Shown: positions 21,378-34,228 of the stretch, one piece after another | Layout of the letters: each line of letters starts with the position of its first letter | Position numbering within the stretch: position 1 is the first letter of the stretch | NCBI GenBank assembly: GCA_003243965.1 | Contig: QHBO01000016.1 | Span: 6,778 to 70,777 of the forward strand | Length of the DNA: 64,000 nt | Source of the DNA: Chloroflexota bacterium | Lineage (GTDB): Bacteria; Chloroflexota; Limnocylindria; QHBO01 | Direction of reading: 5' to 3' | Made by a program: the position numbers and the translations under genes | The notes under the pieces: generated by a model | The model's database searches: none | Seen by the model: only the letters and a program-made list of their open reading frames with translations | What the model was told of the DNA's origin: nothing

Positions 21378-21406
21378 AGTTTCGGTTGCCTCCAGTCCGG
21401 GCGTGT

Positions 21407-22414
21407 TCAGTACACGGCCGGCGCCGGCACGGAGCCCATGATCTGGCGGCCGTAGAGGTCGAGCTGATCCTCCTCATCGCCGTTCATCAGGTAGATGTTG
21501 AACTGGGTCACTCCGGCGTCTCGAAGCTCCTCGAGCCGCTCCCGGTGCGCCGATGCCGGCCCCACGACTGCCAGCCGATCAGTGATCTCGTCGGACACGA
21601 AGCGCGCGTTGTCGCTGCCAACCTCCGCGTGGTGCAGGTAGTCGTAGCCCTCGCGGTTCGCCACGTACCGCCACAGCGGCTCCGGCAGCTCCTCGCGCGG
21701 GTAGCGGCTGAGGAGGTCGACCACGTGGTTGCTGACCAGCGCGGGGAACCAGCGAACGCGCTCGCGCGCGGCGGCCATGTCGTCGGCGAGGTACGCGGGC
21801 GCAGCTGCCATCACCTCGATGGCATCGGGGTTGCGGCCGGCCTCCTCCGCGGCACGTCGCACGAAAGCGAGACACCAGCGGATGATGTCCGGGTCGGCGA
21901 GCTGCAGGATGATCCCGTCCGCCACTCGGCCGGCCGCGGCGAGCGCCTTGGGGCCGTAGCCGGCGATCCAGATCGGCACCGGGCCGTGTTCCGCCCAGGT
22001 CAGCTGGATGGCGGTGCCGTCCACCTCGATGGGCTCGCCGGCGGTCAGCGCCCGCACGATGCGGCACGCCTCCTCCAGGTACGCCACCGTGAGCGGCTTC
22101 TTGCCGGCCACGCGCACCGCGGAGTCGCCGCGCCCCATCCCGAGGTCCATGCGGCCGCCCGCGATCTCGTTCAGGGTCGCGAGCACGGAAGCCGTGACGG
22201 TCACGTCCCGCGTTCCCGGGTTGGTGACGCAGGTCCCGAGGCGCATCCGCTCTGTGCTGGCCGCGATCAACGTCAGGAGCGGGTACGGATCCCGCCACAG
22301 GATGTGGGAATCGAAGATCCAGCCGTAATCGAAGCCGTTGGACTCCGCCCGCGCTGCGAGGTCGACGGCACGCTGGTATCGGTATTCCGGCTTCAGCGTG
22401 ATCCCGAAGCGCAT
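21407..22414 (-). CDS. LLM-class (probably F420-dependent) oxidoreductase
   Basis: Start at MRFGITLKPEY (typical LLM N-terminus); luciferase-like barrel motifs; the upstream 96 codons of the track ORF are Ser/Thr-rich junk. Confidence 0.65.
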   Translation of the reverse strand: MRFGITLKPEYRYQRAVDLAARAESNGFDYGWIFDSHILWRDPYPLLTLIAASTERMRLGTCVTNPGTRDVTVTASVLATLNEIAGGRMDLGMGRGDSAVRVAGKKPLTVAYLEEACRIVRALTAGEPIEVDGTAIQLTWAEHGPVPIWIAGYGPKALAAAGRVADGIILQLADPDIIRWCLAFVRRAAEEAGRNPDAIEVMAAAPAYLADDMAAARERVRWFPALVSNHVVDLLSRYPREELPEPLWRYVANREGYDYLHHAEVGSDNARFVSDEITDRLAVVGPASAHRERLEELRDAGVTQFNIYLMNGDEEDQLDLYGRQIMGSVPAPAVY

Positions 22415-22448
22415 CTGATCCTCCTTCGCGGCGCGTTCATCGCGCCCG

Positions 22449-23297
22449 CTAGGGACGCACGAGGTCCTCGTAGGCGTCGGGCCGGCGATCGCGGTAGAAC
22501 TGCCACAGCTGGCGGACCTCGTCGATTGCGTCGAGGTCGAGGTCGCGCACGATGAGCTCTTCGCGGTGCGGGTCACCGACATCGCCCACGAACTGGCCGC
22601 GGGGATCGACGAAGTACGACTGGCCGTAGAAGTCGTCGTCGCCGAGCGGCTCGATACCGACCCGATTGATGGTGCCGACGAAGTAGCCGTTGGCCAGCGC
22701 ATGGCTCACCTGCTCGACGCGCCACAGGTATTCCGACAGGCCACGCGAAGTTGCAGACGGGATGAAGACCAGCTCCGCTCCGTTGAGCCCCAGCGCCCTG
22801 GCGCCCTCGGGGAAGTGGCGGTCGTAGCAGATGTAGACGCCGACCTTGCCGACCGCGGTGTCGAAGACCGGGTAGCCGAGGTTCCCGGGTCGGAAATAGA
22901 ACTTCTCCCAGAAGCCCTTGACCTGCGGGATGTGCGTCTTGCGGTACTTTCCCAGGTAGCTGCCATCGGCATCGATCACCGCGGCGGTGTTGTAGTAGAT
23001 GCCGCGGGCGTGCTCGTCCTCCTCGTACATCGGGACGATCAGCACCATGCCGGTCTCGCGGGCGAGCTCCTGCATCCGCTTGGTGGTGGGACCGTCGGGG
23101 ATGTGCTCGGTGTAGGAGAAATACTGAGGATCCTGCACCTGGCAGAAGTACGGCCCGTAGAAGAGCTCCTGGAAGCACATCACCTTCGCGCCCTGGGCCG
23201 CCGCCTCTCGGGCGTAACGCTCGTGCTTCTCGATCATCGACTCCTTCTCGCCGGTCCACTCCGCCTGGAGCAGGGCCGCACGGACGATGCGAGCCAT
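22449..23297 (-). CDS. carbon-nitrogen hydrolase (N-carbamoyl-amino acid amidohydrolase / beta-ureidopropionase-like)
   Basis: CN-hydrolase catalytic triad context: CFQE (Glu), KTH (Lys), ICYD (Cys); start at MARIVRAALLQ. Confidence 0.7.
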   Translation of the reverse strand: MARIVRAALLQAEWTGEKESMIEKHERYAREAAAQGAKVMCFQELFYGPYFCQVQDPQYFSYTEHIPDGPTTKRMQELARETGMVLIVPMYEEDEHARGIYYNTAAVIDADGSYLGKYRKTHIPQVKGFWEKFYFRPGNLGYPVFDTAVGKVGVYICYDRHFPEGARALGLNGAELVFIPSATSRGLSEYLWRVEQVSHALANGYFVGTINRVGIEPLGDDDFYGQSYFVDPRGQFVGDVGDPHREELIVRDLDLDAIDEVRQLWQFYRDRRPDAYEDLVRP

Positions 23298-23445
23298 CGG
23301 TTCCTCCGTCGAATCATGACAAAACGTCAAGGAGTGATTGGGCAGTCTCGAGGAGCCGATACAGTACACCGGTCGCCCGCCAGCCCACCGACGCTGCCGG
23401 CTGGCCCCTCGGACCCATCGGCGCCCGACCCGCGGACCGGGGGCG

Positions 23446-24117
23446 TCAGACGAAGTGTCGCCCGCTCCTGATCAGCCCGACGACGATGACGACGTGCGCG
23501 GCCAGGAAGACGGCGATCACCACCAGGACGACCACGACCGTCGTGGTCGGGTCGATCATTGTCGATCGCGCCGCGAGCGCGGAGCTTTGGCGGAGGGAGG
23601 CGAGCGAGCTCAGCACCACCACCGCGTCGAGCAGGATCCCCAGCACCGCGAGCACCATTCCGGTGATGCGGCCCCACCCACGCCGCCTGAGGACGCCGAT
23701 CCCGGCCGCGATATGCGCCGCGGCGAACCCCAGCGCAATGATCGCCAGCACCACCATGACCGCCGACATCGCTCCGAGCATGCCGCGCATGTCGATGCCC
23801 TGCAGCTCCGGCGTGCTGAACGCAGGGTTGTTCGGCGAGAGTCCGCTCATCACGGCCTGGGAGAGCAGGAACAGCAGGCCCCAGATCGCGGAAAGGACGC
23901 CCAGCACCAGGAGGATGACACCGATCGCAATCAGCATCGGCGGCGTCCCACCCGCCGGTGACGCGCCACCCGGTGGCGGCCCAGCCGGAGGTGTGCTCGG
24001 CGGGCTCCATCCAGCCGCGGGTGCCGCGGGAGGCTGCCATGCGCGGGGCGGCTCGGTGCCCTGTGTGGACGCAATCTCAGAACGTTGACGAAACCTTTGC
24101 AAGGAGCTGAGCGTCAC
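23446..24117 (-). CDS. membrane protein with Pro-rich N-terminal region and four predicted TM helices
   Basis: GTG-initiated ORF; strongly hydrophobic helices; function unknown. Confidence 0.35.
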   Translation of the reverse strand: MTLSSLQRFRQRSEIASTQGTEPPRAWQPPAAPAAGWSPPSTPPAGPPPGGASPAGGTPPMLIAIGVILLVLGVLSAIWGLLFLLSQAVMSGLSPNNPAFSTPELQGIDMRGMLGAMSAVMVVLAIIALGFAAAHIAAGIGVLRRRGWGRITGMVLAVLGILLDAVVVLSSLASLRQSSALAARSTMIDPTTTVVVVLVVIAVFLAAHVVIVVGLIRSGRHFV

Positions 24118-24240
24118 TACGTAGCCTTTCCCCGCAGGCGGTCTCTGGTGCGCTAGCCATCATGCCACCGTCAGTGGTGAAGAGAACTCAAGAATTTCTT
24201 TCCCGGTGCGGCGTTGTGGCGGTGACACAAGCGGCCGTTA

Positions 24241-25974
24241 ATGACAGTGCACTCACAACGATTGGGAACCATGCGTTCAACGCTTCGACAGCGAGCTCTG
24301 AGCCTCGCCTCAACGATTCCGGTAGGCCTGATGCTCATCGCCGCCCTGGTTGCAGCCCTCAAGGCGCTGGAGGTGGTCGTGCCGCCCCTGCGGCCGCTGC
24401 CGGCCATTCTTCCCATCGATCCCGATGCGTCCCAGCGGCTGACCGCGCTAACCGTGTGCATCGCCCTGCTGGCGCTGGGCATCGGTCTGGCTCGCCGCAA
24501 GCGCGCCGCATGGTGGCTCGCGATCAGCGTCCTCCTTCCGGCGCTCGTGGTCCAGCTGTCGATGCTGCGCCATCCCATCTCCGCCTCGCTCGCCGGCCTC
24601 TCGCTCCTGGTCCTGTTCCTCGATCGCCGACGCTACCGGGTCTCCAGCGGCCGGGCATCGCGACGGATCACGACGATCCTGAGCGCAACCGGTCTGGCGA
24701 TCGCGGGCGCTGCGCTCGCGCTGGCCGCGGCAACCGGCGTCGGAATCGTTCGCCCGGATTCCGAGCTTGGCAGTTTGGTGAATGCCACGGTCCGCTGGGT
24801 GGCCCTCGGTGATCCGACGGTTGCGCTGCTGGGACAGGGGGCGCTGCTGGCGATCATCGTCCTGATTGCCAGGGTGGTGGTGGCGGCGGGATTCTGGAGG
24901 CTGCTCACGCCGGCGGAGTCGCCTGACCTCGACCCGGGCCTCCAGCTGCATGCCACCGCGGTCGCCGAGCGCTTCGGCCACGGGGCGCTTCGGCCCTTCC
25001 AGCTGGGCAATGACAAGAGCTACTTCACGCTTCCCGATGCCGAATCCGCCATCGCCTTCGCTCGCGATGGGCGCTTGGCGGTCGCCCTCGGCGATCCGAT
25101 CGGTCCACCCGAGGCCGGCCGGCGCGTTGCCGAGGCGTTCCTGCGCGAATGTGCGCGGCGCGACTGGGTGCCGTGTGTCTACCAGGCATCTTCCGCCGGA
25201 CTGCCGCTCCTGACCGATCTCGGTCTGCGCCCCTACCTGATCGGCAAGGAGGCGACCGTCGACCTGACGAGCTTCGATCTCACAGGCGGCAAGCGCGCGA
25301 ACCTGCGCCACACGGTGACGCGCGCTCAGCGCGGCGGAGTCGCCGCGCGTTGGTACCCCGATGGCGTCGGGGGTGAGCCGGCGAGCCTGATCGAGCAGCT
25401 TCGCGAGCTCGATCGGGCGTGGCGCGGCAACCGCCCGGAGATGGGGTTCACGATCAGCCGCTTCGACCCGATCGACCTGGTGCGCTATCCGGTCAGCGTC
25501 GCCTATGACGACCAGGGCAATCCGCTCGCGTTCGCGACGTTCCGTGCCACCGGCGAGGGAGGCTGCGTCCTCGATCTCATCCGTCGCCAGCCCGGCGGCG
25601 TCCCCGGCGCCATGGAGCTCTGCCTTGCTTCCGCCGCCACCGAGCTGCGCGCCGCGGGGTTCACGACCCTCTCGCTGGGCCTGGCACCGCTCGCCGGCCT
25701 CGAGAGCGGCCGCGGCGTGGTCGAGCGCCTGCTGGCGCTTGGTGCCCGCGCCATCCGACCGGCGTACGACGTGCGGGGCCTTGCGTTCTTCAAGGGCAAG
25801 TTTGCGCCAACCTGGGAGCCGCGCTACCTCGTCGTCGACAAGCGCGCCAGCCTGCCCCGAGTAATGATGGCCCTGCTTCGCCTTCATCTCGGAGGCGCGA
25901 AGGGGCTGTTGAAGGCAGCTGGCGCGGAGATCGCACCGCACCGTCGTACGGTCGCGGCTCACGCTGGTGACTGA
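24241..25974 (+). CDS. MprF-like aminoacyl-phosphatidylglycerol synthase (TM anchor + DUF2156 synthase domain, no flippase domain)
   Basis: About 6 N-terminal TM helices followed by a C-terminal domain resembling the lysyl/alanyl-PG synthase domain. Confidence 0.55.
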   Translation: MTVHSQRLGTMRSTLRQRALSLASTIPVGLMLIAALVAALKALEVVVPPLRPLPAILPIDPDASQRLTALTVCIALLALGIGLARRKRAAWWLAISVLLPALVVQLSMLRHPISASLAGLSLLVLFLDRRRYRVSSGRASRRITTILSATGLAIAGAALALAAATGVGIVRPDSELGSLVNATVRWVALGDPTVALLGQGALLAIIVLIARVVVAAGFWRLLTPAESPDLDPGLQLHATAVAERFGHGALRPFQLGNDKSYFTLPDAESAIAFARDGRLAVALGDPIGPPEAGRRVAEAFLRECARRDWVPCVYQASSAGLPLLTDLGLRPYLIGKEATVDLTSFDLTGGKRANLRHTVTRAQRGGVAARWYPDGVGGEPASLIEQLRELDRAWRGNRPEMGFTISRFDPIDLVRYPVSVAYDDQGNPLAFATFRATGEGGCVLDLIRRQPGGVPGAMELCLASAATELRAAGFTTLSLGLAPLAGLESGRGVVERLLALGARAIRPAYDVRGLAFFKGKFAPTWEPRYLVVDKRASLPRVMMALLRLHLGGAKGLLKAAGAEIAPHRRTVAAHAGD

Positions 25975-27610
25975 GGTGGCGCTACCGAGACTTCCGCAGC
26001 GCACGCTGCATGGAACCGCGCGGGCCGCGGCTCCCGAGATCGCAGCGGTCCTGCTGGTGGCCGCGGTGCTCTGGGTGCTCCGGACCACCGCCACGATCCC
26101 GTCGATCCGCGACACCCTGATCTTCATGGGTTTCGACACCGAGCGGGCGATGCTGATCGTCGCCCTGCTGATGGGCCTCGCCGCCGGTACCATCGCGGGC
26201 GCGGTCGGCACCGGCCGACTGCCAGCCGCGATCCTCGGCATCGGGGCGACCGCAGCCACGTACGCGCACACATTCATCGCCCAGACCACCCGGGACACAA
26301 CTGCATCAGCCAACCTTGGTCGCCTCGATCCAGGAGGCTGGCTGACGACATTCCTGGCGATCGTGGCGGCCGGTGGCCTGGCCGGACTCGCGGCGGGAAT
26401 CCTGGCCAGCGAGGCGCGCAGTGCCGTGGCGGATCTCGCCGGGCAGGTGCGCGCGGCGTATCGGACCCGCCGGCCAGCGGCGATCCACCGCGCCAGGCTC
26501 GCGGTGGTGGTCACGGTCGTGGCGGCGGTGCTGGTCGCCGTGCCGTCGATGGGAGCGATGCTGAACTACAGCGCGGATGTGCTGATGCGCAATGGCGGCC
26601 AGAACGTCCCGCTCGTGCCGAGCGGCGCGGGGATGGTCGGGATACCCGGCATGGGCGGTCAGAGCACCAAGCCGCCGACCGGCCGCAGCAGCTCCCCGGG
26701 GACGAGCGGCTGGAGCCACGGTGCTCCCCAGGGCGTCGCACTCCCGCCGGTGACCACCACCTCGGGGTCGCGGCCGTGGCTCGCCTGGCGGCCCAGCGGC
26801 AGCGGCCAGGTCCTGTACGTCAAGCTGCCGGCTCCCTGGAGCGCTGGCACGAGCCCGACCGCCAACGTGGCCGTCTATCTTCCCCCCGGTTACGGCATCG
26901 GAAACCGGCGCTATCCGGTGGTCTATGAGGCGCCCTGGCCGATCACGCTGTTCCAGAACGGGGCGAACATCCAGGGCACGCTGGATGCCCTGATCACCTC
27001 GGGCACGATCCCGGCCAGCATCTTCGTGTTTGCGTCGAGCGGCGGCGGCCCGTACGTCGACAACGAGTGCATCAACTCCGCCGACGGGCGCGAGAACTTC
27101 GACGACTACCTGAGCCGCACCCTGATCAGCTACGTCGATCAGAACTACCGGACGATTGCCGATCGACGGGCGCGATCGCTGATGGGCGACTCACAGGGCG
27201 GGTACTGCGCCGCCGACCTGCTGGTCCGTCATCCGGATGTCTTCGGGCAGGAGATCACCTGGAGCGGCTACTTCATGGCCGCGCCACTGATCAGCATCTC
27301 ACCCAGCGCCGTGGCGCCGTTCGGCGGCAACCTGGCGCTGATGCGGGCCTATTCGCCGATGCTGCTCACCCCGCGCATTCCCCAGGCGCTGCGTGGCCAG
27401 CTGTACTTCGTGATCATCGGCCTCCCGACCCAGCCGATCTACGGGCCGCAGATCCAGGCCTTCACCGCGCAGCTGCGCTACCTGGGCTACCCGTACACGG
27501 TGATCAGCACCCCCTTCGGGCACTCGTGGAACGGCGTCCGCGACACGCTGCCGGCGGCCTTGATGGCGATCGCCGCCCAGGAAGTGCGGACCGGGGTCTT
27601 CGCTCACTGA
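25967..27610 (+). CDS. membrane-anchored esterase (PF00756 'putative esterase' / Ag85–Fes-like alpha/beta hydrolase)
   Basis: About 5 N-terminal TM helices; catalytic GDSQGG nucleophile elbow; 8-nt overlap with the preceding gene. Confidence 0.5.
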   Translation: MTEVALPRLPQRTLHGTARAAAPEIAAVLLVAAVLWVLRTTATIPSIRDTLIFMGFDTERAMLIVALLMGLAAGTIAGAVGTGRLPAAILGIGATAATYAHTFIAQTTRDTTASANLGRLDPGGWLTTFLAIVAAGGLAGLAAGILASEARSAVADLAGQVRAAYRTRRPAAIHRARLAVVVTVVAAVLVAVPSMGAMLNYSADVLMRNGGQNVPLVPSGAGMVGIPGMGGQSTKPPTGRSSSPGTSGWSHGAPQGVALPPVTTTSGSRPWLAWRPSGSGQVLYVKLPAPWSAGTSPTANVAVYLPPGYGIGNRRYPVVYEAPWPITLFQNGANIQGTLDALITSGTIPASIFVFASSGGGPYVDNECINSADGRENFDDYLSRTLISYVDQNYRTIADRRARSLMGDSQGGYCAADLLVRHPDVFGQEITWSGYFMAAPLISISPSAVAPFGGNLALMRAYSPMLLTPRIPQALRGQLYFVIIGLPTQPIYGPQIQAFTAQLRYLGYPYTVISTPFGHSWNGVRDTLPAALMAIAAQEVRTGVFAH

Positions 27611-27686
27611 GCAGGCCCGGAAGGGCACAATCCGACCGCCTGGCGGCGGGCGGCCACCTCCGGCTCCTGACCGATATCCTCGCAGG

Positions 27687-28865
27687 ATGAACCTCGTCGA
27701 CGTGTTGATCCTGGTCGTTGTCCTGGCAGCGACGGGTATCGGCGCGCGCTCAGGCTTTGCGGCGCTCTTCTTCGCCCTGCTCGGCCTGTGCGGCGGACTG
27801 CTGCTGGCCGTCGTGAGCGCGGGCCTGTTCCGCGCTCAGCTATCGGAACTGGCGCCGCAAGCGCGCCTTCTGGTCGTGCTTGCTGGAGTGGCAATCCTGC
27901 TGGCCGCCGGCGAGGGGCTCGGGGCGAGCCTTGGCGCCCGACTCTCATGGCGCCTGCGGCGGTCGGTGCTGGCACCGCTCGACGCGCTCGGCGGTGCGCT
28001 GCTCGGAGCGGGGCACGGGATCCTGATCGTCTGGCTCGTCGGATCATTCGTGCTCGCCGCCGGCGGTCCGCGCCTGGTTGCGGAGGCCCGTCGCTCGACC
28101 GTCCTGTCGGCCATTTATCGCGTCTTGCCCGCGCCGAGCCTGATCGGCTCGAGCCTGCTGGCGCTGATCGACCGCAGCGATCTCCCGCGGCTCTTCGCCG
28201 GGCTGGAACCGTCGCCGGCTCCGCCCGTGGCGCTGCCCGGCGACCAGCAGGCGCAGGCCCTGGCGCGCAGCGCGATCGCCAGCACGGTGGAGGTGGTGGT
28301 CGCCGCCTGCGATCGAGAGCAGGTCGGTACCGGCTTCTTCGTTGCCCCATCGGTGGTGGTCACCAACGCGCACGTCGTCAGCGGCGGGACGCAGATGGTG
28401 GTCCGCCGCGGCGACGGCGACCATCCCGCCATCCTGACCTTCTTCGACCCCGATCACGACATCGCACTGCTGCGGGTCAGCGGAACGACCGGAGCGCCAC
28501 TGACCCTGGCAGCCCAGATCCCGGCGCGTGGGACCCGCGGGGTGGCGCTGGGGCACCCGCTGGCGGGGCCGTTGACCGTCATCCCGGCCGCCGTCACGGC
28601 GCAGTACAACCCAGCGCGCGGGACCGACATCGACGACCGGCGTACGGTGCTGCGGTCGATCGTCGAGCTCCGGGCGCACGTCGAGCACGGCGACAGCGGC
28701 GGACCCCTGGTCGTTGCGCCCGGCGTGGTGGGTGGCATCGTGTATGGGGCGTCTGCCTCCACGGCCGATGTCGGCTATGCGCTTGCGGCGCCGATGGTGG
28801 CGCGCGAAATCTCCCCGGTCCTGGGCCGCGCGGCGCCGGTCGGCTCGGGAACGTGCATCCCCTGA
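27687..28865 (+). CDS. MarP-like membrane serine protease (CvpA-like 4-TM domain + trypsin-like domain)
   Basis: N-terminal CvpA-like helices; trypsin-fold catalytic residues (TNAHV, DIALL, GDSGGP). Confidence 0.65.
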   Translation: MNLVDVLILVVVLAATGIGARSGFAALFFALLGLCGGLLLAVVSAGLFRAQLSELAPQARLLVVLAGVAILLAAGEGLGASLGARLSWRLRRSVLAPLDALGGALLGAGHGILIVWLVGSFVLAAGGPRLVAEARRSTVLSAIYRVLPAPSLIGSSLLALIDRSDLPRLFAGLEPSPAPPVALPGDQQAQALARSAIASTVEVVVAACDREQVGTGFFVAPSVVVTNAHVVSGGTQMVVRRGDGDHPAILTFFDPDHDIALLRVSGTTGAPLTLAAQIPARGTRGVALGHPLAGPLTVIPAAVTAQYNPARGTDIDDRRTVLRSIVELRAHVEHGDSGGPLVVAPGVVGGIVYGASASTADVGYALAAPMVAREISPVLGRAAPVGSGTCIP

Positions 28866-28930: not shown

Positions 28931-30259
28931 ATGACCGTCACGTCCAGTCGCCTCAGCACGCAGGAGATCCTGCGGCTCAACTCCGAGTACACCTTCTTCT
29001 CATGGTCGGCCCAGGCGAAGGTCAATCCGATCGTCATCGACCACGGCCAGGGGATCCACTTCTGGGATCCAGATGGCAAGCGCTACATCGACTTCAACAG
29101 CCAGCTGATGAGCGTCAACATCGGTCATGGTGATCGACGCGTGGCCGATGCCATCGCCGACCAGGCGCATACCCTCGCCTTCGCCGCACCCCAGTTCGCG
29201 ACCGAGGTGCGCGGACGCCTGGGGGAGCTGCTGGCGCAACTGACCCCGGGGGACCTGAACAAGTTCTTCTTCACCCTCGGCGGAGCGGAGGCGAACGAGA
29301 ACGCGCTGCGCATGGCCCGGATGTACACCGGTCGCCAGAAGGTGATCGCCCGCTACCGCTCCTACCACGGTGCCACCGCGGGTGCCATCAGCGTCACCGG
29401 TGACCCGCGCCGATGGGCGAACGAGCCGGGGGTGCCGGGGGTGATCCGGGTGATGGACCCGTATCGGTATGGCAATCCGGAGCCGGACCCGGTCGAGGAG
29501 CACCTCGCCTATCTCGACGAGGTGATCCAGTACGAGGGGCCAGATACGATCGCCGCCTTCATCCTGGAGACGGTCACCGGCACCAACGGGATCCTGGTCC
29601 CGCCGGACGGCTACCTCCAGGGCGTCCGCGAGCTGTGCGACCGCTACGGGATGGTGATGATCACCGACGAGGTGATGGCCGGCTTTGGGCGCACCGGACG
29701 CTGGTTCGCCGTCGATAACTGGGACGTGGTGCCGGACCTGCTGACCATGGCCAAGGGGCTCACCAGCTCGTACCTGCCGCTCGGGGCGGTGGCCATCAAG
29801 CCGGAGATCGCCGCCCACTTCAACGAGCGCGTCTATTACGGCGGCCTCACCTACTCCGCCCACCCGATCAGCTGCGCCGCGGCCATCGCCGCGGTGAACG
29901 TCCTCCGCGACGATGACCTGGTCGGCAATGCGGCTCGCCTGGGCCCGGTGATGGCGCGGCTGCTGCGCGACCTGATGGAGCGCCATCCGAGCGTCGGGAC
30001 GGTGCGCAGCATCGGTCTGTTCGGGATCCTGGAGCTCGCTCGGCGGCGCGACCCCTGGGAGCCGCTGGCGCCCTTCAACGGCAGCTCGCCGGAGATGGCC
30101 GCGCTCGAGGCACGCCTCCGCGATGACGGCCTGTACACCATGCTCCACTGGAACGGCGTCTTCACCAACCCGCCGCTGTGCATCACCGAGGACGAGCTGC
30201 GCGAGGGGTTCGCGATCATCGATCGCGCCCTCGAAGCCACCGACGCCGCCATTGCCTGA
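28931..30259 (+). CDS. class-III aminotransferase (omega-amino acid/beta-alanine:pyruvate transaminase-like)
   Basis: PLP fold with ITDEVMAGFGRTG and TMAKGLTS (Lys) motifs. Confidence 0.75.
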   Translation: MTVTSSRLSTQEILRLNSEYTFFSWSAQAKVNPIVIDHGQGIHFWDPDGKRYIDFNSQLMSVNIGHGDRRVADAIADQAHTLAFAAPQFATEVRGRLGELLAQLTPGDLNKFFFTLGGAEANENALRMARMYTGRQKVIARYRSYHGATAGAISVTGDPRRWANEPGVPGVIRVMDPYRYGNPEPDPVEEHLAYLDEVIQYEGPDTIAAFILETVTGTNGILVPPDGYLQGVRELCDRYGMVMITDEVMAGFGRTGRWFAVDNWDVVPDLLTMAKGLTSSYLPLGAVAIKPEIAAHFNERVYYGGLTYSAHPISCAAAIAAVNVLRDDDLVGNAARLGPVMARLLRDLMERHPSVGTVRSIGLFGILELARRRDPWEPLAPFNGSSPEMAALEARLRDDGLYTMLHWNGVFTNPPLCITEDELREGFAIIDRALEATDAAIA

Positions 30260-30265
30260 CCGGCG

Positions 30266-31195
30266 ATGACCGCCGCCGGCGCCCTGCTGCCGCGCCGCCG
30301 TCGACCTGCGCTGGAGATGCACGGCGCCGCCTCCGCCGCCCGGGGGGTGCTGTCTTTCGTGGTCGTCACGCTGCTGATCGCGGTCGTCTGGGAGGGCGCC
30401 AAGTGGATCGCCGGCGACCCCTGGCGCGAGATCCTGGGGATGCCGCTCAACCCGCCGCACGTGCCGCCCTTCAACGTCCTGCAGCTCAACGACCAGAACC
30501 TGCCGCATGTGTGGGACATCGTCGCGGCCTTCGGCCGGCCGGCGACGCGCAACAATCCCTTCACGCTGGGGGCGGTGCTGACCGATGCGGCCCTCTTCAC
30601 CGGCCGCAGCGCGGTGGTCGGCTTCGCCGCCGGGGCGATCTTCGGGCTGGCGCTGGCCGTCGTGTTCGTGCACAGCCGGCTCCTGGAGCGAGCGCTCGTC
30701 CCGTACGTGGTCGCCAGCCAGACGGTGCCGATCATCGCCCTCGCCCCGATGCTGGTGCTGTGGGTCGGCACCGAGTGGACGAGCGTGGCGCTGGTGAGCG
30801 CTTACCTGACCTTCTTCCCGGTCACCATCGCCGGCATCCGAGGGCTCACCTCCCCGGATCCGCGGGCGCTGGAGCTGATGCGCAGCTATGCCGGCGGCTG
30901 GTGGGGCGTGCTCTGGAAGGTGCGGTTTCCGGCTGCGCTGCCCTACCTCTTCACCGCGTTCAAGATCAGCGCCACGGCGAGCGTGGTGGGCGCCATCGTG
31001 GGCGAGGAGCCGACCGGCATCCGCGGCGGCTTGGGCCGCGCCATCCTGGAGTTCAACACGCAATACATCTCCGGCCCGGAGAAGCTGTGGGCCACGGTGC
31101 TCGTCTCCGCCGCGCTGGGCATCGCGCTGTTCGCGGCCGTTCGGCTGGCCGAGCTGCTCGTCCTCCGCGGACGCGTGGCGGCGGTGGAAGCGTGA
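30266..31195 (+). CDS. ABC transporter permease (NitT/TauT family)
   Basis: 6-TM BPD-transport domain with EAA-like loop; GTGA overlap with the ATPase gene. Confidence 0.7.
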   Translation: MTAAGALLPRRRRPALEMHGAASAARGVLSFVVVTLLIAVVWEGAKWIAGDPWREILGMPLNPPHVPPFNVLQLNDQNLPHVWDIVAAFGRPATRNNPFTLGAVLTDAALFTGRSAVVGFAAGAIFGLALAVVFVHSRLLERALVPYVVASQTVPIIALAPMLVLWVGTEWTSVALVSAYLTFFPVTIAGIRGLTSPDPRALELMRSYAGGWWGVLWKVRFPAALPYLFTAFKISATASVVGAIVGEEPTGIRGGLGRAILEFNTQYISGPEKLWATVLVSAALGIALFAAVRLAELLVLRGRVAAVEA

Positions 31196-32106
31196 GCGCG
31201 CGCCTCCCCGCCGACGTGGGCAGCGTGGGCGTCTCGGGCGCCTCGCCCGTCGCCTCCGCCGGCTCGAGCGCCTCGGGCGCCGACAGGCAGATCGTCGCGG
31301 TGCGCGGCGTCCAGAAGCGGTTCTCGATCGGCGGAGACACGACCCTGGCCCTGGAGGAGGTCGACCTGCGGGTCGAGGCGGGCGAGTTCGTGAGCCTCAT
31401 CGGTCCGTCCGGCTGCGGGAAGAGCACCCTGCTGCGGATCATCGGTGACCTCACCGCCCCCAGCGCCGGTTCGGTCGAGGTGAATGGCAAGCCCGCCCAC
31501 CGCGCACGCCACGACCGCGACTACGGGATCGTCTTCCAGGCACCGGTGCTGTTCGACTGGCGCACGATCGATTCGAACGTGCAGCTTCCCCTGGAGATCG
31601 TGGGGACGCCGCGCCGGGAGCGTGCTCAGCGCGCCTCGGAGATGCTTGCCCTGGTGGAGCTCTCGGACTTTCGCCGCCACCACCCCTGGCAGCTCTCGGG
31701 CGGCATGCAGCAGCGTGCGGCGATCGCGCGTGCGCTGGTCCTGGAGCCCAGGCTGCTGCTCATGGACGAGCCGTTCGGCGCGTTGGATGAGATGACCCGC
31801 GAGCGGATGAACGACGAGCTGCTGCGAATCTGGGAACGGACCGGAACGACCGTCATCTTCGTCACGCACTCGATTCCCGAGGCGGTCTTCCTCTCGAGCC
31901 GCGTGGTGATCATGTCGCCGCGGCCGGGGCGCATCACCCGCATCATCCCCATCGACCTGCCGCGTCCCCGCGACGATGCGACCCGCGAGACGCCGCGCTA
32001 CTTCGAGCTCGTCACCGAGGTGCGGGAGGCGCTTCGCGGCGGAGAGCTCCGGCAGCCCGCGCAGGGGAAGGCGGCTGACGAGGCCGCCGGCAGGCTCGGA
32101 ACATGA
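31192..32106 (+). CDS. ABC transporter ATP-binding protein (NitT/TauT family)
   Basis: Walker A GPSGCGKST, signature LSGGMQQR, Walker B LLLMDEP; GTG start at the permease stop. Confidence 0.8.
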   Translation: MSARLPADVGSVGVSGASPVASAGSSASGADRQIVAVRGVQKRFSIGGDTTLALEEVDLRVEAGEFVSLIGPSGCGKSTLLRIIGDLTAPSAGSVEVNGKPAHRARHDRDYGIVFQAPVLFDWRTIDSNVQLPLEIVGTPRRERAQRASEMLALVELSDFRRHHPWQLSGGMQQRAAIARALVLEPRLLLMDEPFGALDEMTRERMNDELLRIWERTGTTVIFVTHSIPEAVFLSSRVVIMSPRPGRITRIIPIDLPRPRDDATRETPRYFELVTEVREALRGGELRQPAQGKAADEAAGRLGT

Positions 32107-32882
32107 GACGTCGGCTCGCCTACTACCTGCCCACGATCGTCGTCTTCGTCGGCGGCATCCTCCTCTGGGAGCTGCTGGTGCGCGCCCTGAACATCGAGCG
32201 CTTCCTGCTTCCGCGACCGACCGACATCATCGGCGCCTTCGGTGACAATTGGGAGCTGCTGCGCAACGCCGGCATCAACACGCTCGTCGAGGCGGTCGGC
32301 GGCTTCGCCATCGGTCTGACGGCGGGCCTCGCCGCGGCCCTGGCAACCTCGCGCTTCGCGGTCGCACGATCGGCGCTGCTGCCGTTTGCGATCGCCGCCA
32401 ACGCGGTGCCGATCGTGGCCTTCGCCCCGATCATGAACAACTGGTTCGGTGTCACCAGCCCGTTGTCGAAGATGATGATCGTGGCGGTGCTGGTCTTCTT
32501 CCCGGTGATGATCAACGTGGTGCGCGGCCTGGTGAGCGCCGACGCGGCCACCCTGGAGCTGATGCGCTCCTACGCCGCCAGCGAGCTGCAGATCCTGCGC
32601 CGAGTCAGGATTCCCGCCGCCCTCCCCTACTTCTTCACGGCACTCAAGGTGGGGGCGACGCTGAGCCTCATCGGGGCAATCGTCGGCGAATACTTCGGCG
32701 GAGCGAGCGAGGCGCTGGGCCGCGTCATCGTCGAGAGCGCAGCATTCCTGCGCTTCTCCACCGCCTGGGCCGCCATCATCATCGCTGCGGCGCTCGGAAT
32801 CGCCTTCTACCTGCTGATCACCGCGCTGGAGCGAGTGGCGATGCCATGGCACGCGTCCGTTCGGGGCGCACGGGAAGGCTGA
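32103..32882 (+). CDS. ABC transporter permease (NitT/TauT family, second)
   Basis: ATGA overlap with the ATPase gene; BPD-transport domain. Confidence 0.7.
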   Translation: MRRRLAYYLPTIVVFVGGILLWELLVRALNIERFLLPRPTDIIGAFGDNWELLRNAGINTLVEAVGGFAIGLTAGLAAALATSRFAVARSALLPFAIAANAVPIVAFAPIMNNWFGVTSPLSKMMIVAVLVFFPVMINVVRGLVSADAATLELMRSYAASELQILRRVRIPAALPYFFTALKVGATLSLIGAIVGEYFGGASEALGRVIVESAAFLRFSTAWAAIIIAAALGIAFYLLITALERVAMPWHASVRGAREG

Positions 32883-33028
32883 CCACGGACCGATCGACTT
32901 GGCGATGGCTCGAGAGCAGGCAGGAGGTGGAGGTGGCGCCGCAGCCGGCGCATAACAGGACCCGAGGCGGAACGCAAGAATGCGGCGCGACCGTGGCCGG
33001 TCGGCCCCAACCGGAAGGAACAGCCCCG

Positions 33029-34228
33029 ATGAAGCATCTCTGGCGCAGCATCACTCTATTGGCCGCCGGCGGCTTGGCCCTGACCGCGTGCGGGACCGGC
33101 GGCGCCGGTGCCACTCCGACCACCTCCCCGAGCGTGGTCTTCTCGTCCAGCGCGGGTGCCAGCGGCCCGGCCGCACAGTCCGACTGTGGGGCGAGCGCGC
33201 TCGGCGGCTCCAACGTCAAGGTGCGGTTCCAGCTGCAGTGGACTCCGCAGGCGCAGTTCGCCGGCTACTACGCCGCCAAGGACAACGGCTACTACCGCGA
33301 TGCCGGTCTGGACGTCACGATCCTCGACGGCGGCCCGACCATCGCCCCGCAGACCGTGGTCGCCGCCAAGGACGGCCCCGAGTTCGGCGAGGCGTGGGTT
33401 CCCAAGGTGCTCGTCGCGAACGAGCAGGGCGCCGACCTGGTCAACATCGCCCAGGTGTTCCAGCGCTCCGGAACCCTGGAAGTCTCCTGGAAGGACAGCA
33501 ACATCACCGACCCGGCCCAGTGGAAGGGTAAGAAGGTCGGCGCCTGGGGCTTCGGCAACGAGTTCGAGGTGACCGCCGCAGCGCGCAAAGCCGGCCTCAC
33601 CGACGCCGACTACAAGAAGGTGACGCAGGACTTCAACATGGCGCTCCTGCTGAACCGGGAGATCGACACCGCCGAGGCGATGATCTACAACGAGCTCGCA
33701 CAGCTGCTGGAGACGACCGATCCCAAGACCGGCAAGCTCTACAGCCAGGATCAGCTAAACATCATCGACCTCAACAAGTACGGCACCGCGATGCTCCAGG
33801 ACCATGTCATCGCCCGCAAGAGCTGGCTCGACGGCCAGACCAGCGGCGTCAGCAACGCGCAGATCGCGACCTGCTTCCTGCGCGCCTCGTTCAAGGGCTG
33901 GATCTACTGCCGCGATAACCCAGACAAGTGCGTCGACATCACGCTGAACCAGGGCACCATCCTGGGCAAGGGGCACCAGCGCTGGATGATGAACGAGATC
34001 AACGCGCTGATCTGGCCCTCGCCGAGCGGCATCGGGATCCTGGATCCCAAGCTCTGGAACCAGACCGTGTCGATCTCCAAGGACTTCAAGATCCTGAAGG
34101 CCGATCCGGCGAGCTGGGCGTATCGGACCGATCTGGCGCAGAAGGCGCTCGACGGACTCCAGGGGACCGATACCCAGGGCGCGAGCTTCCAGAAGGGCAC
34201 GGTGCAGGTCACGCCCAAGGGCGAGTGA
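33029..34228 (+). CDS. NMT1/THI5-like substrate-binding lipoprotein
   Basis: ATG with a GGAAGGAA RBS; lipobox LALTAC; periplasmic binding fold of the NMT1 family (binds pyrimidine-type ligands in characterised members). Confidence 0.6.
   Translation: MKHLWRSITLLAAGGLALTACGTGGAGATPTTSPSVVFSSSAGASGPAAQSDCGASALGGSNVKVRFQLQWTPQAQFAGYYAAKDNGYYRDAGLDVTILDGGPTIAPQTVVAAKDGPEFGEAWVPKVLVANEQGADLVNIAQVFQRSGTLEVSWKDSNITDPAQWKGKKVGAWGFGNEFEVTAAARKAGLTDADYKKVTQDFNMALLLNREIDTAEAMIYNELAQLLETTDPKTGKLYSQDQLNIIDLNKYGTAMLQDHVIARKSWLDGQTSGVSNAQIATCFLRASFKGWIYCRDNPDKCVDITLNQGTILGKGHQRWMMNEINALIWPSPSGIGILDPKLWNQTVSISKDFKILKADPASWAYRTDLAQKALDGLQGTDTQGASFQKGTVQVTPKGE

What the first reader, a model, noticed from the sequence alone, without database searches (positions are those of the whole stretch)
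24241..28865. Envelope-lipid module: MprF-like aminoacyl-PG synthase overlapping a membrane esterase, followed by a MarP-like protease
A protein with a TM anchor plus DUF2156 synthase domain (no flippase domain) overlaps by 8 nt a gene for a membrane-anchored alpha/beta-hydrolase with a GDSQGG nucleophile elbow. Synthase/hydrolase pairs for aminoacyl-phosphatidylglycerol are known in other bacteria, but with different hydrolase families, so this would be a distinct pairing. Immediately downstream on the same strand is a CvpA–trypsin fusion like the mycobacterial acid-resistance protease MarP. Together these suggest a stress-responsive membrane-remodelling locus.
Basis: partly seen in the sequence, partly recalled or inferred. 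Interest (0 to 1): 0.55.

Follow-up and report, generated by a model that had tools for sequence, protein, structure and literature searches.

The report
Short MprF synthase with membrane esterase
A soil Chloroflexota genome carries a tightly coupled gene pair, an enzyme that attaches amino acids to membrane lipids and a membrane-anchored esterase predicted to face outwards; it is a divergent relative of a pair already described in Corynebacterium, and the neighbouring MarP protease is probably just a neighbour.

Summary
Three + strand genes sit at the stated coordinates:
- a 577-aa MprF-type synthase that lacks the flippase core;
- a 547-aa membrane esterase (PF00756, GDSQGG);
- a 392-aa MarP-family protease.

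- The window comes from a Limnocylindria-type Chloroflexota MAG, not an actinobacterium.
- The synthase/esterase pair is real and selected. The two genes are adjacent on one strand in 46 of about 58 evaluable related loci, in both gene orders and often with 4-nt overlaps. The pair recurs in Dormibacterota and in Prescottella, and it occurs as single fused proteins (P0350, P0185, P0186).
- It is not a "distinct pairing". A PF00756 "putative esterase" (PesT) in an operon with a short MprF homologue (AlaDAGS) is already published for Corynebacterium. The window esterase is homologous to an actinobacterial esterase in that same context.
- MarP is adjacent only in the two closest relatives, so a three-gene module is not supported.

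New here:
- a lineage-restricted 5-TM domain on the esterase, with 123 representatives among 1.84 billion proteins;
- fusions that place the esterase outside the cell;
- a variable catalytic-acid position in the esterase;
- loss of two synthase residues that are essential in S. aureus MprF.

Verdict: a new variant of a known kind, of moderate interest.

The parts
24118..24240 (.). Intergenic region between a minus-strand ORF (23446-24117) and the synthase. It is the probable divergent promoter region of the + strand unit.
   Evidence: Composition by codon position favours the minus-strand ORFs upstream. The sequence here is locally less G+C-rich. No sigma-70 consensus, terminator or Rfam match was found.
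24241..25974 (+). Short MprF-type aminoacyl-tRNA:lipid aminoacyltransferase, 577 aa. It has a membrane domain homologous to MprF TM9-14 plus a tandem-GNAT synthase domain, and no flippase subdomain 1.
   Evidence: PF09924 at 1.3e-63. NF033480 matches positions 309-838/841 only, at 277 bits, below the 600 cut-off. PDB matches: 7f47, 9w50, 4v34, 6lvf/7duw and 4v36, at 1e-44 to 1e-34.
24241..24900 (+). Membrane domain of the synthase (about residues 1-220), with five clear hydrophobic segments and one weaker.
   Evidence: Hydropathy scan. Aligns to residues 354-530 of R. tropici MprF, which is subdomain 2, TM9-14 (PMC8131360).
24958..25920 (+). Cytoplasmic tandem-GNAT catalytic domain. D258/K259, E400, D445, R448 and K518/K520 are conserved. 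The positions of S. aureus K621 and E624 are L333 and K336.
   Evidence: Motif mapping and family alignment. The list of essential residues comes from PMC2774229.
25967..27610 (+). Membrane esterase, 547 aa: a 5-TM domain, a disordered linker and a PF00756 alpha/beta-hydrolase domain.
   Evidence: It is 100% identical to P0001, from a 289,825-bp JGI metagenome contig.
26006..26563 (+). Lineage-restricted 5-TM domain (residues 14-199). Near-invariant motifs are MGFDxDRA (54-61), E/Q-T (106-107), FDxxGW (120-125; LDPGGW in the window protein), R151 and P193.
   Evidence: AF2 helices at 14-40, 58-80, 84-112, 122-167 and 175-199. Conservation. No Pfam or PDB relative. Only 123 representatives in 1.84 billion proteins.
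26564..26761 (+). Low-complexity Pro/Gly/Ser-rich linker (residues 200-265), variable in length among relatives.
   Evidence: pLDDT below 50 for residues 202-265. This region is gappy in alignment A1.
26762..27607 (+). Predicted extracytoplasmic serine esterase domain. The nucleophile is Ser409 (GDSQGG) and the catalytic His is His519. Cys368 and Cys414 are invariant. The canonical acid position after beta7 is Leu486.
27687..28865 (+). MarP-family membrane serine protease (CvpA domain plus trypsin-like domain). It is a neighbour and not part of the conserved pair.
   Evidence: NF033740 at 272.5 bits, above the 250 cut-off. PDB 3k6y at 6e-32. Adjacent only in L001 and L002.

Best explanation
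The core feature is a translationally coupled two-gene lipid-aminoacylation module of the AlaDAGS/PesT type, found here in a Limnocylindria-like Chloroflexota genome.

Gene 1 is a short MprF homologue with a membrane domain equivalent to MprF TM9-14 and a cytoplasmic tandem-GNAT domain. It is inferred to take an aminoacyl group from aminoacyl-tRNA at the inner face of the membrane and esterify a lipid hydroxyl. The acceptor (phosphatidylglycerol or diacylglycerol) and the amino acid are unknown.

Gene 2 is a serine esterase (PF00756). A family-specific 5-TM domain holds it on the outer face of the membrane. It is inferred to act on the ester bond of the aminoacyl-lipid made by gene 1, either hydrolysing it to set the level of the lipid or passing the aminoacyl group to another acceptor.

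The two proteins probably work as a physical complex. The synthase lacks the flippase core, so the esterase's conserved 5-TM domain is the best candidate for docking to the synthase, and possibly for presenting the lipid head group at the outer leaflet.

The MarP protease gene downstream may be co-transcribed in this genome but is not part of the conserved unit.

Shown here: domain identities, coupling, conservation of the pair, fusions, and predicted topology. Inferred: substrates, direction of the esterase reaction, and the role of the 5-TM domain.
For: 1. Identity of the parts.

2. Coupling in the window: an 8-nt overlap or a 1-nt gap.

3. Conservation. 68 GTDB species loci encode the esterase, all of them Chloroflexota/Limnocylindrales. 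46 have the synthase directly adjacent on the same strand, in both orders and many with 4-nt overlaps. One further locus (L038) has it divergent. About 10 of the rest are too short to judge.

4. Independent recurrence. A Dormibacterota-type esterase (P0069) overlaps a 506-aa LPG_synthase_C gene by 8 nt. The Prescottella sp. R16 esterase P0192 overlaps an 838-aa LPG_synthase_C gene by 4 nt.

5. Fusions. P0350 (1095 aa), P0185 (995 aa) and P0186 (965 aa) carry synthase, 5-TM domain and esterase in one chain, in the same order as the window genes.

6. Topology. There are five TM helices. The Arg/Lys-rich loops alternate: 11/1/2/1/7 in P0350, directly after the tRNA-dependent and therefore cytoplasmic GNAT domain (window protein). 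A Cys pair is invariant in the esterase domain. All of this places the esterase outside.

7. Precedent. In Corynebacterium, PesT is a putative esterase in an operon with AlaDAGS and is needed for Ala-PG formation. AlaDAGS and LysX have six TM helices plus a GNAT domain (PMC6103681, PMC10580965). In S. aureus MprF, the last six TM helices plus the C-terminal domain suffice for synthesis but not for exposure at the outer leaflet (PMC2774229).
Against: - No activity was measured for any member of this Chloroflexota family.
- The synthase has L333 and K336 where S. aureus MprF has K621 and E624, both reported as essential. This pair is variable across the family and is also altered in the Prescottella homologue.
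- The esterase lacks an acidic residue at the canonical post-beta7 position (Leu486). That position varies across the family (D, Q, K, S, N and others), so the acid of the triad is unidentified and the chemistry could be unusual.
- About 11 loci with ample flanks have the esterase without a synthase. Their neighbours are other envelope genes or housekeeping metabolic genes, so the esterase family is not exclusively tied to the synthase.
- The C. glutamicum PesT sequence itself could not be obtained. The PesT link rests on the literature description and on a Prescottella gene pair with the same arrangement.
- The function of PesT is itself unresolved.
Confidence: 0.65

Rival explanations
1. The esterase is not a hydrolase. 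It is an extracytoplasmic aminoacyl transferase, acting like Ag85 mycolyltransferases of the same Pfam family. It would move the aminoacyl group from the lipid made by the synthase to a second acceptor, either another lipid such as PG or an envelope polymer. The pair would then be an export route for activated amino acids rather than a homeostasis pair.
For: - One of the two published hypotheses for PesT is an Ala-DAG-to-PG transferase activity (PMC6103681).
- The nearest folds include Ag85C and MPT51, and the sequence search weakly matches the C. glutamicum PS1 protein (6sx4).
- The esterase is predicted to be outside.
- Some synthase-less paralogues sit next to LytR_cpsA_psr cell-wall ligase genes.
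- The acid position is relaxed while Ser409 and His519 remain invariant.
Against: - No acceptor is identified.
- The top structural neighbours are plain hydrolases: feruloyl esterases and esterase D.
- The other characterised partners of aaPGS genes (AhyD, VirJ/PA0919) are hydrolases.
Confidence: 0.2
2. One reading: synthase, esterase and MarP form one stress-responsive membrane-remodelling module.
For: - All three genes are on the same strand, with a 76-nt gap and no terminator-like site between the esterase and MarP.
- The order synthase-esterase-MarP-aminotransferase is kept in L001, and esterase-MarP in L002.
- All three proteins are membrane proteins with envelope-facing or membrane-facing roles.
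Against: - MarP is adjacent in only 2 of 68 loci, and those two are the closest relatives. This looks like retained local synteny, not selection.
- The pair occurs with many different neighbours, and in Dormibacterota and Actinobacteria without MarP.
- The flanking genes in the window are a luciferase-like monooxygenase, a CN hydrolase, a class-III aminotransferase and an ABC importer.
Confidence: 0.08
3. The DUF2156 protein has diverged from lipid aminoacylation. It would use another donor or acceptor, or be inactive, and the esterase would act on an unrelated envelope ester.
For: - L333 and K336 replace the K621 and E624 positions that are essential in S. aureus MprF.
- M. tuberculosis LysX2 shows that MprF-like domains can have non-canonical roles (PMC8974105).
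- Esterase paralogues exist without a synthase.
Against: - The other residues are conserved: D258/K259, E400, D445, R448 and K518/K520.
- The full-length match to PF09924 is strong, and the match to solved AlaPG and LysPG synthase domains is 1e-40 to 1e-34.
- Family members with the canonical KxGEE motif are paired with the same esterase family, so the pairing does not depend on the variant motif.
Confidence: 0.1
4. The esterase is a siderophore (Fes-type) esterase or a carbohydrate esterase that merely lies next to the synthase.
For: JGI labels many relatives 'enterochelin esterase-like enzyme'. The best solved matches are feruloyl esterases.
Against: - The label is a generic COG name.
- There is no Fes or IroE among the top 50 folds.
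- The adjacency is conserved, overlapping and fused.
- The protein is membrane-embedded, with a dedicated 5-TM domain.
Confidence: 0.03

Closest known systems
AlaDAGS-PesT of Corynebacterium glutamicum (Smith et al. 2015, as described in PMC6103681 and PMC10580965)
   Same: - A short MprF homologue (six TM helices plus a GNAT domain, no flippase core) is encoded in an operon with a 'putative esterase'.
- An actinobacterial pair with that arrangement (Prescottella: P0192 plus an MprF homologue) has a PF00756 esterase with N-terminal TM helices, GxSxGG and the same Cys pair. It is homologous to the window esterase (1e-12).
   Different: - The phylum differs: Chloroflexota, not Actinobacteria.
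- The gene order here is synthase then esterase. Both orders occur in the family.
- The esterase's membrane domain is a different, lineage-specific 5-TM domain with its own invariant motifs, against about four unrelated TM helices in P0192.
- The canonical acid residue is not conserved.
- Fused single-chain versions exist.
- The products (Ala-DAG or Ala-PG there) are unknown here.
- The C. glutamicum PesT sequence itself was not compared.
Bifunctional MprF (S. aureus, R. tropici, P. aeruginosa)
   Same: The tandem-GNAT synthase domain and the preceding six-helix subdomain 2 are homologous.
   Different: - Subdomain 1 (TM1-8), which holds the lipid-binding cavities and the YRxxY motif, is absent.
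- The score is below the equivalog cut-off (277 bits against 600).
- The positions of K621 and E624 are changed.
aaPG hydrolases AhyD (Enterococcus) and VirJ-type PA0919/AcvB (Proteobacteria)
   Same: Each is a hydrolase gene in an operon with an aaPGS gene. The VirJ type also acts at the outer face of the cytoplasmic membrane.
   Different: They belong to unrelated hydrolase families. The window esterase matches only PF00756.
MarP (Rv3671c) of M. tuberculosis
   Same: It has a CvpA-type 4-TM domain plus a trypsin-like domain, the catalytic triad and the Cys pair. The match is above the NCBIfam equivalog cut-off, and PDB 3k6y matches at 6e-32.
   Different: It is found here in Chloroflexota. 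No link to acid resistance was tested, and it is not conserved next to the lipid pair.

Membership tests
MprF / aaPGS superfamily (PF09924, LPG_synthase_C) | C-terminal tandem-GNAT synthase domain scoring above the Pfam gathering score | tested here: met
   215.3 bits against a cut-off of 27.5, residues 255-531. Solved AlaPGS and LysPGS domains match at 1e-40 and 5e-36.
MprF / aaPGS superfamily (PF09924, LPG_synthase_C) | At least six TM helices preceding the catalytic domain, which are required for activity in S. aureus MprF (PMC2774229) | tested here: met
   Residues 27-220 align to TM9-14 of R. tropici MprF. The hydropathy scan gives five clear segments and one weaker segment.
MprF / aaPGS superfamily (PF09924, LPG_synthase_C) | The six residues essential in S. 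aureus MprF: K547, K621, E624, D731, R734 and K806 | tested here: inconclusive
   K259, D445, R448 and K518/K520 are present. The K621 position is L333 and the E624 position is K336 ('YLIGKEA' against 'FKxGEEA'). This pair varies across the Limnocylindria synthases, and the Lys position (K621) is also changed in the Prescottella homologue.
Bifunctional flippase/synthase MprF (NF033480) | N-terminal flippase subdomain 1 (TM1-8) and a whole-protein score above the equivalog cut-off | tested here: not met
   Only model positions 309-838 of 841 are matched, at 277 bits against a cut-off of 600. Subdomain boundaries are from PMC8131360.
PesT-type esterase partner of short MprF homologues | 'Putative esterase' (PF00756) encoded in an operon with an MprF homologue | tested here: met
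   PF00756 at 9e-19. Overlapping genes. The adjacency is conserved. PesT is described in PMC6103681. That PesT is a PF00756 member is my recollection of Smith et al. 2013/2015; those papers are not in the library.
PesT-type esterase partner of short MprF homologues | Sequence homology to an actinobacterial esterase located directly upstream of an MprF homologue | tested here: met
   P0192 (Prescottella sp. R16) overlaps an 838-aa LPG_synthase_C gene. BLASTP to the window esterase gives 1e-12 and 29% identity over 203 aa, covering the Cys pair and the nucleophile elbow. The N-terminal membrane domains are not alignable.
PesT-type esterase partner of short MprF homologues | Orthology to C. glutamicum PesT itself, and dependence of Ala-PG formation on it | not testable with these tools
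The search from P0192 listed only Rhodococcus, Nocardia and close relatives among its best 120 of 1925 hits. The function needs an experiment.
Fes/IroE siderophore esterases | Closest sequence or fold relatives are enterobactin or salmochelin esterases | tested here: not met
   The top PDB sequence and fold matches are a soil metagenome esterase (8z91), CE1 feruloyl esterases, esterase D/FrmB and Ag85. No Fes or IroE appears in the top 50.
AhyD / VirJ (AcvB, PA0919) aaPG hydrolases | Membership of the corresponding hydrolase families | tested here: not met
   Only PF00756 is matched at E <= 0.01. The review describes the three types as structurally unrelated.
MarP family serine protease (NF033740) | CvpA membrane domain plus trypsin-like domain, a score above the equivalog cut-off, the catalytic triad and the Cys pair | tested here: met
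   272.5 bits against a cut-off of 250, matching model positions 1-389 of 390. PF02674 and PF13365 match. PDB 3k6y at 6e-32. H229, D258, S337, C208 and C390 are present.
MarP family serine protease (NF033740) | Functional or genomic linkage to the lipid pair | tested here: not met
   Adjacent only in L001 and L002 out of 68 loci.

The most novel reading that the evidence does not exclude
The esterase's lineage-specific 5-TM domain replaces the missing MprF flippase core. The pair (or the fused protein) would then be a split machine. It would aminoacylate a lipid inside, pass the head group across the membrane through the 5-TM domain, and hand the amino acid to an extracytoplasmic acceptor by Ag85-like transesterification. 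That would be a tRNA-fed, lipid-carried route for aminoacylating the cell envelope, analogous in logic to Dlt D-alanylation. It would also explain the unresolved role of PesT.
Probability: 0.12. Interest if true: 0.8.

Novelty: new variant of a known kind. Interest (0 to 1): 0.4.

Why it matters
Lipid aminoacylation by MprF-type enzymes changes membrane charge and underlies resistance to cationic peptides and daptomycin.

How short, flippase-less MprF homologues get their products to the outer leaflet is an open question. So is the function of the associated 'putative esterase' PesT; the 2017 review states that its role is not clear.

The Chloroflexota and Dormibacterota pairs add three usable facts:
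- Natural single-chain fusions show that the two proteins work together.
- The topology puts the esterase outside the cell.
- A small, strongly conserved 5-TM domain is a concrete candidate for coupling the two sides of the membrane.

These facts give direct experimental handles on the PesT question. They also extend the system to abundant, uncultured soil phyla.

Tried and rejected
- The original PesT/AhyD papers (PMC4639916, PMC3829361 and their DOIs) and Hebecker 2011 (PMC3111014) are not in the library. The description of PesT comes from the review and the 2023 LysX paper.
- Searching papers for cg1103, cg1104 and similar tags returned only unrelated hits.
- Three distant PF00756 hits (P0068, P0065, P0072) were checked for a neighbouring synthase. 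None had one, so they are not PesT-like pairs.
- The last protein search, from P0192, listed only Rhodococcus, Nocardia and close relatives, so C. glutamicum PesT was not reached.
- The 5-TM domain profile had no significant match in PDB (best: proteorhodopsin, E = 0.017) or Pfam. No link to the MprF flippase subdomain was detectable by sequence.
- The afdb50 fold library was unavailable.
- Model coordinates are not exposed. The catalytic acid and the Cys368-Cys414 distance could not be measured.
- There was no Rfam match, including no T-box, above noise. No promoter or terminator consensus was found, and no meaningful repeats.
- The + strand ORFs I first took as upstream genes (21386-22555, 22566-23471, 23486-24088) are probably shadows of minus-strand genes. 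The tblastn 'conservation' of 22566-23471 in L001 is best explained as the antisense frame of the CN hydrolase gene.
- Apparent 1,100-aa ORFs in L012, L018, L028, L041 and L049 are over-extended frames, not fusions.


Full report
WHAT IS THERE

Their GC3 of 0.81-0.88 is the coding pattern of this genome.

The esterase is 100% identical to a protein from a 289,825-bp JGI metagenome contig. Its relatives are annotated as Chloroflexota, Candidatus Limnocylindrales or, for one partial sequence, Candidatus Dormibacteraeota. All 68 loci recovered from species-representative genomes are Chloroflexota MAGs. The organism is therefore a Limnocylindria-type Chloroflexota, not an actinobacterium.

SYNTHASE (24241-25974)

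- It matches PF09924 at 1.3e-63.
- It matches the bifunctional MprF equivalog only over model positions 309-838 of 841, at 277 bits, well below the 600-bit cut-off.
- Against solved structures it aligns to residues 354-874 of R. tropici MprF, and to the isolated AlaPG and LysPG synthase domains at 1e-40 and 5e-36.
- In R. tropici MprF, subdomain 1 (residues 24-325, TM1-8) holds the two lipid cavities and the YRxxY motif. Subdomain 2 (334-530) is TM9-14 (PMC8131360).
- The window protein therefore keeps subdomain 2 and the tandem-GNAT domain and lacks the translocation core. This is the architecture reported for the actinobacterial AlaDAGS and LysX: six TM helices plus a GNAT domain (PMC10580965). 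In S. aureus, that part of MprF is enough for Lys-PG synthesis but leaves most of the product in the inner leaflet (PMC2774229).
- Six residues were shown to be essential in S. aureus MprF: K547, K621, E624, D731, R734 and K806. The window protein keeps the DK motif (D258/K259), D445 and R448 (LDLIRR), and K518/K520 (FFKGKF), plus E400.
- It has L333 and K336 at the K621 and E624 positions: 'YLIGKEA' where canonical proteins have 'FKxGEEA'.
- Across the related Limnocylindria synthases this pair is variable: KVGEE, RVGHE, PIGRE, LVGRE and others. The Prescottella homologue also lacks the Lys. I treat this as divergence within an active family, but it is a real caveat.

ESTERASE (25967-27610)

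- PF00756 matches at 9e-19.
- The AlphaFold2 model built on 33 relatives is good (pLDDT 82.8, pTM 0.73). It shows helices at 14-40, 58-80, 84-112, 122-167 and 175-199, a short helix at 43-53, a disordered linker at 202-265 and an alpha/beta-hydrolase fold at 266-547.
- Ser409 in GDSQGG sits between a strand and a helix, as a nucleophile elbow should. His519 follows the last strand. Both are invariant, as are Cys368, Cys414 and Asp391.
- The position where this fold normally has its acid, after strand 480-485, is Leu486 here. It varies across the family (D, Q, K, S, N, Y). The third member of the triad is therefore unidentified. I could not inspect coordinates.
- The nearest solved structures are CE1 feruloyl esterases, a soil metagenome esterase, esterase D/FrmB and Ag85 mycolyltransferases. 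No siderophore esterase appears in the top 50.
- The N-terminal 5-TM domain carries near-invariant polar motifs: MGFDxDRA, E-T, FDxxGW (LDPGGW in the window protein), R151 and P193. It has no Pfam or PDB relative. It is rare: 123 representatives at 50% identity among 1.84 billion proteins, 76 of them at E <= 1e-30.

IS THE PAIR REAL?

The two genes overlap by 8 nt, or are 1 nt apart if the second GTG is used.

Of the 68 loci found through the esterase:
- 46 have a synthase homologue directly adjacent on the same strand, in either order, many with 4-nt overlaps. One more (L038) has it divergent;
- about 10 are too short to judge;
- about 11 are genuine synthase-less paralogues.

A more distant esterase family, with relatives annotated as Candidatus Dormibacteraeota, shows the same arrangement. 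P0069 overlaps a 506-aa LPG_synthase_C gene by 8 nt.

Three cluster representatives are single-chain fusions of synthase, 5-TM domain and esterase, in the order of the window genes: P0350, P0185 and P0186. Conserved adjacency in both orders, recurrence in other lineages and fusions together make functional coupling the only reasonable reading.

TOPOLOGY

The GNAT domain needs aminoacyl-tRNA and is cytoplasmic. In the fusions it is followed by five hydrophobic segments whose connecting loops alternate between Arg/Lys-rich and poor: 11/1/2/1/7 in P0350. The window protein shows the same pattern, with seven Arg/Lys in the 148-177 loop. An odd number of helices starting from the cytoplasm puts the esterase outside. 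The invariant Cys pair fits an extracytoplasmic domain. The conserved MGFDxDRA and FDxxGW motifs fall in the outer loops, next to where the esterase would meet the membrane surface.

COMPARISON WITH WHAT IS KNOWN

The literature says otherwise.
- PesT is in an operon with AlaDAGS in Corynebacterium. Co-expression of both is needed for Ala-PG. Its role, either Ala-DAG-to-PG transferase or Ala-DAG hydrolase, is unresolved (PMC6103681; PMC10580965).

I could not retrieve the C. glutamicum protein. In Prescottella sp. R16, of the same suborder, a 439-aa PF00756 protein with N-terminal TM helices overlaps the start of an 838-aa LPG_synthase_C gene. That esterase has at least 1,925 relatives, those listed being mainly from Rhodococcus and Nocardia. 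It is homologous to the window esterase over the catalytic domain, including the Cys pair (1e-12; sequences). The pairing is therefore of the PesT kind.

The differences are:
- the phylum;
- the lineage-specific 5-TM domain, against about four unrelated helices in the actinobacterial protein;
- the relaxed acid position. The actinobacterial and Dormibacterota proteins keep acidic residues in the corresponding stretch;
- the existence of fusions.

MarP AND THE WIDER LOCUS

The third gene is a bona fide MarP-family protease. It follows the pair only in L001 and L002, the two closest relatives.

Upstream of the synthase the real genes are on the minus strand: a luciferase-like monooxygenase, a CN hydrolase and a small unknown ORF. 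Downstream of MarP are a class-III aminotransferase and an ABC importer.

Nothing else in the neighbourhood concerns the envelope. No regulatory RNA, promoter or terminator consensus was found. The three-gene 'stress module' is not supported. MarP may still be co-transcribed here.

MECHANISM AND CONFIDENCE

Best reading, confidence 0.65: a two-part aminoacyl-lipid system. The synthase works at the inner face. The esterase works at the outer face on the synthase's product. The 5-TM domain is the contact, and possibly the route, between them.

- Hydrolase or aminoacyl transferase cannot be decided from sequence. I give the transferase variant 0.2.
- The acceptor lipid (PG or DAG) and the amino acid are open. 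The only characterised six-helix MprF homologues make aminoacyl-DAG, which makes DAG a serious candidate.
- The most novel reading is that the 5-TM domain substitutes for the flippase core in a tRNA-fed envelope aminoacylation route. I put this at about 0.12.

VERDICT

This is a new, structurally distinct variant of the known AlaDAGS/PesT kind in uncultured soil phyla, with MarP as a bystander. Interest is moderate (0.4). It does not overturn anything, but the fusions and the topology give direct handles on the unresolved function of PesT-type esterases.

Noticed in passing
L027:7164-11675, L030:9769-14291, L052:9640-14004: Synthase-less paralogues of the 5-TM esterase are followed by a conserved trio of genes. 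Pfam assignments were made for L030 only: a CAP-domain protein, an ABC ATPase and an 867-aa MacB/FtsX-type permease. L027 and L052 have ORFs of the same sizes in the same order.
   Followed up: partly
L016:9667-11079, L047:10711-12045: Other synthase-less paralogues are followed by a LytR_cpsA_psr (LCP) cell-wall polymer ligase gene. In L026 and L047 a 6-phosphogluconolactonase gene lies upstream. This hints that the esterase family has wider envelope roles.
   Followed up: partly
window 21386-24088 (+ strand ORFs) against 21407-24117 (- strand): The long + strand ORFs upstream of the synthase have no Pfam hits and the wrong composition by codon position. The real genes are on the minus strand: luciferase-like monooxygenase (21407-22702), CN hydrolase (22449-23369) and an unknown 223-aa ORF (23446-24117). 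The synthase is therefore divergently transcribed from them.
   Followed up: yes
window 28931-34228: Downstream of MarP, all on the + strand, are a class-III aminotransferase (28931-30259) and an ABC importer. The importer has two BPD_transp_1 permeases, an ABC ATPase and an NMT1/THI5-like binding protein.
   Followed up: partly
L013:13473-14321, L018:7338-8240, L036:13454-14296, L031:11625-12437; also L010, L011, L046: Several loci carry a second esterase copy. In some it lies in tandem. In others it lies about 2 kb beyond the synthase and matches only the catalytic domain (query residues about 263-545), possibly a copy without the 5-TM domain.
   Followed up: no
L072:6317-8833: The Prescottella MprF homologue paired with the PesT-like esterase is 838 aa, with about 11-12 hydrophobic segments. 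This is longer than the six-helix AlaDAGS described for Corynebacterium. Its extra N-terminal region was not analysed.
   Followed up: no
window 27422 (esterase residue 486) and alignment A1: The canonical catalytic-acid position after strand beta7 is Leu in the window esterase and varies across the family (D, Q, K, S, N, Y), while Ser409 and His519 are invariant. The acid of the triad is unidentified.
   Followed up: partly
window 25880-25916 (- strand): A sub-threshold Rfam match to the nadA riboswitch (23.9 bits against a gathering score of 37.5, E = 0.059) lies inside the synthase coding region on the opposite strand. It is almost certainly chance.
   Followed up: no
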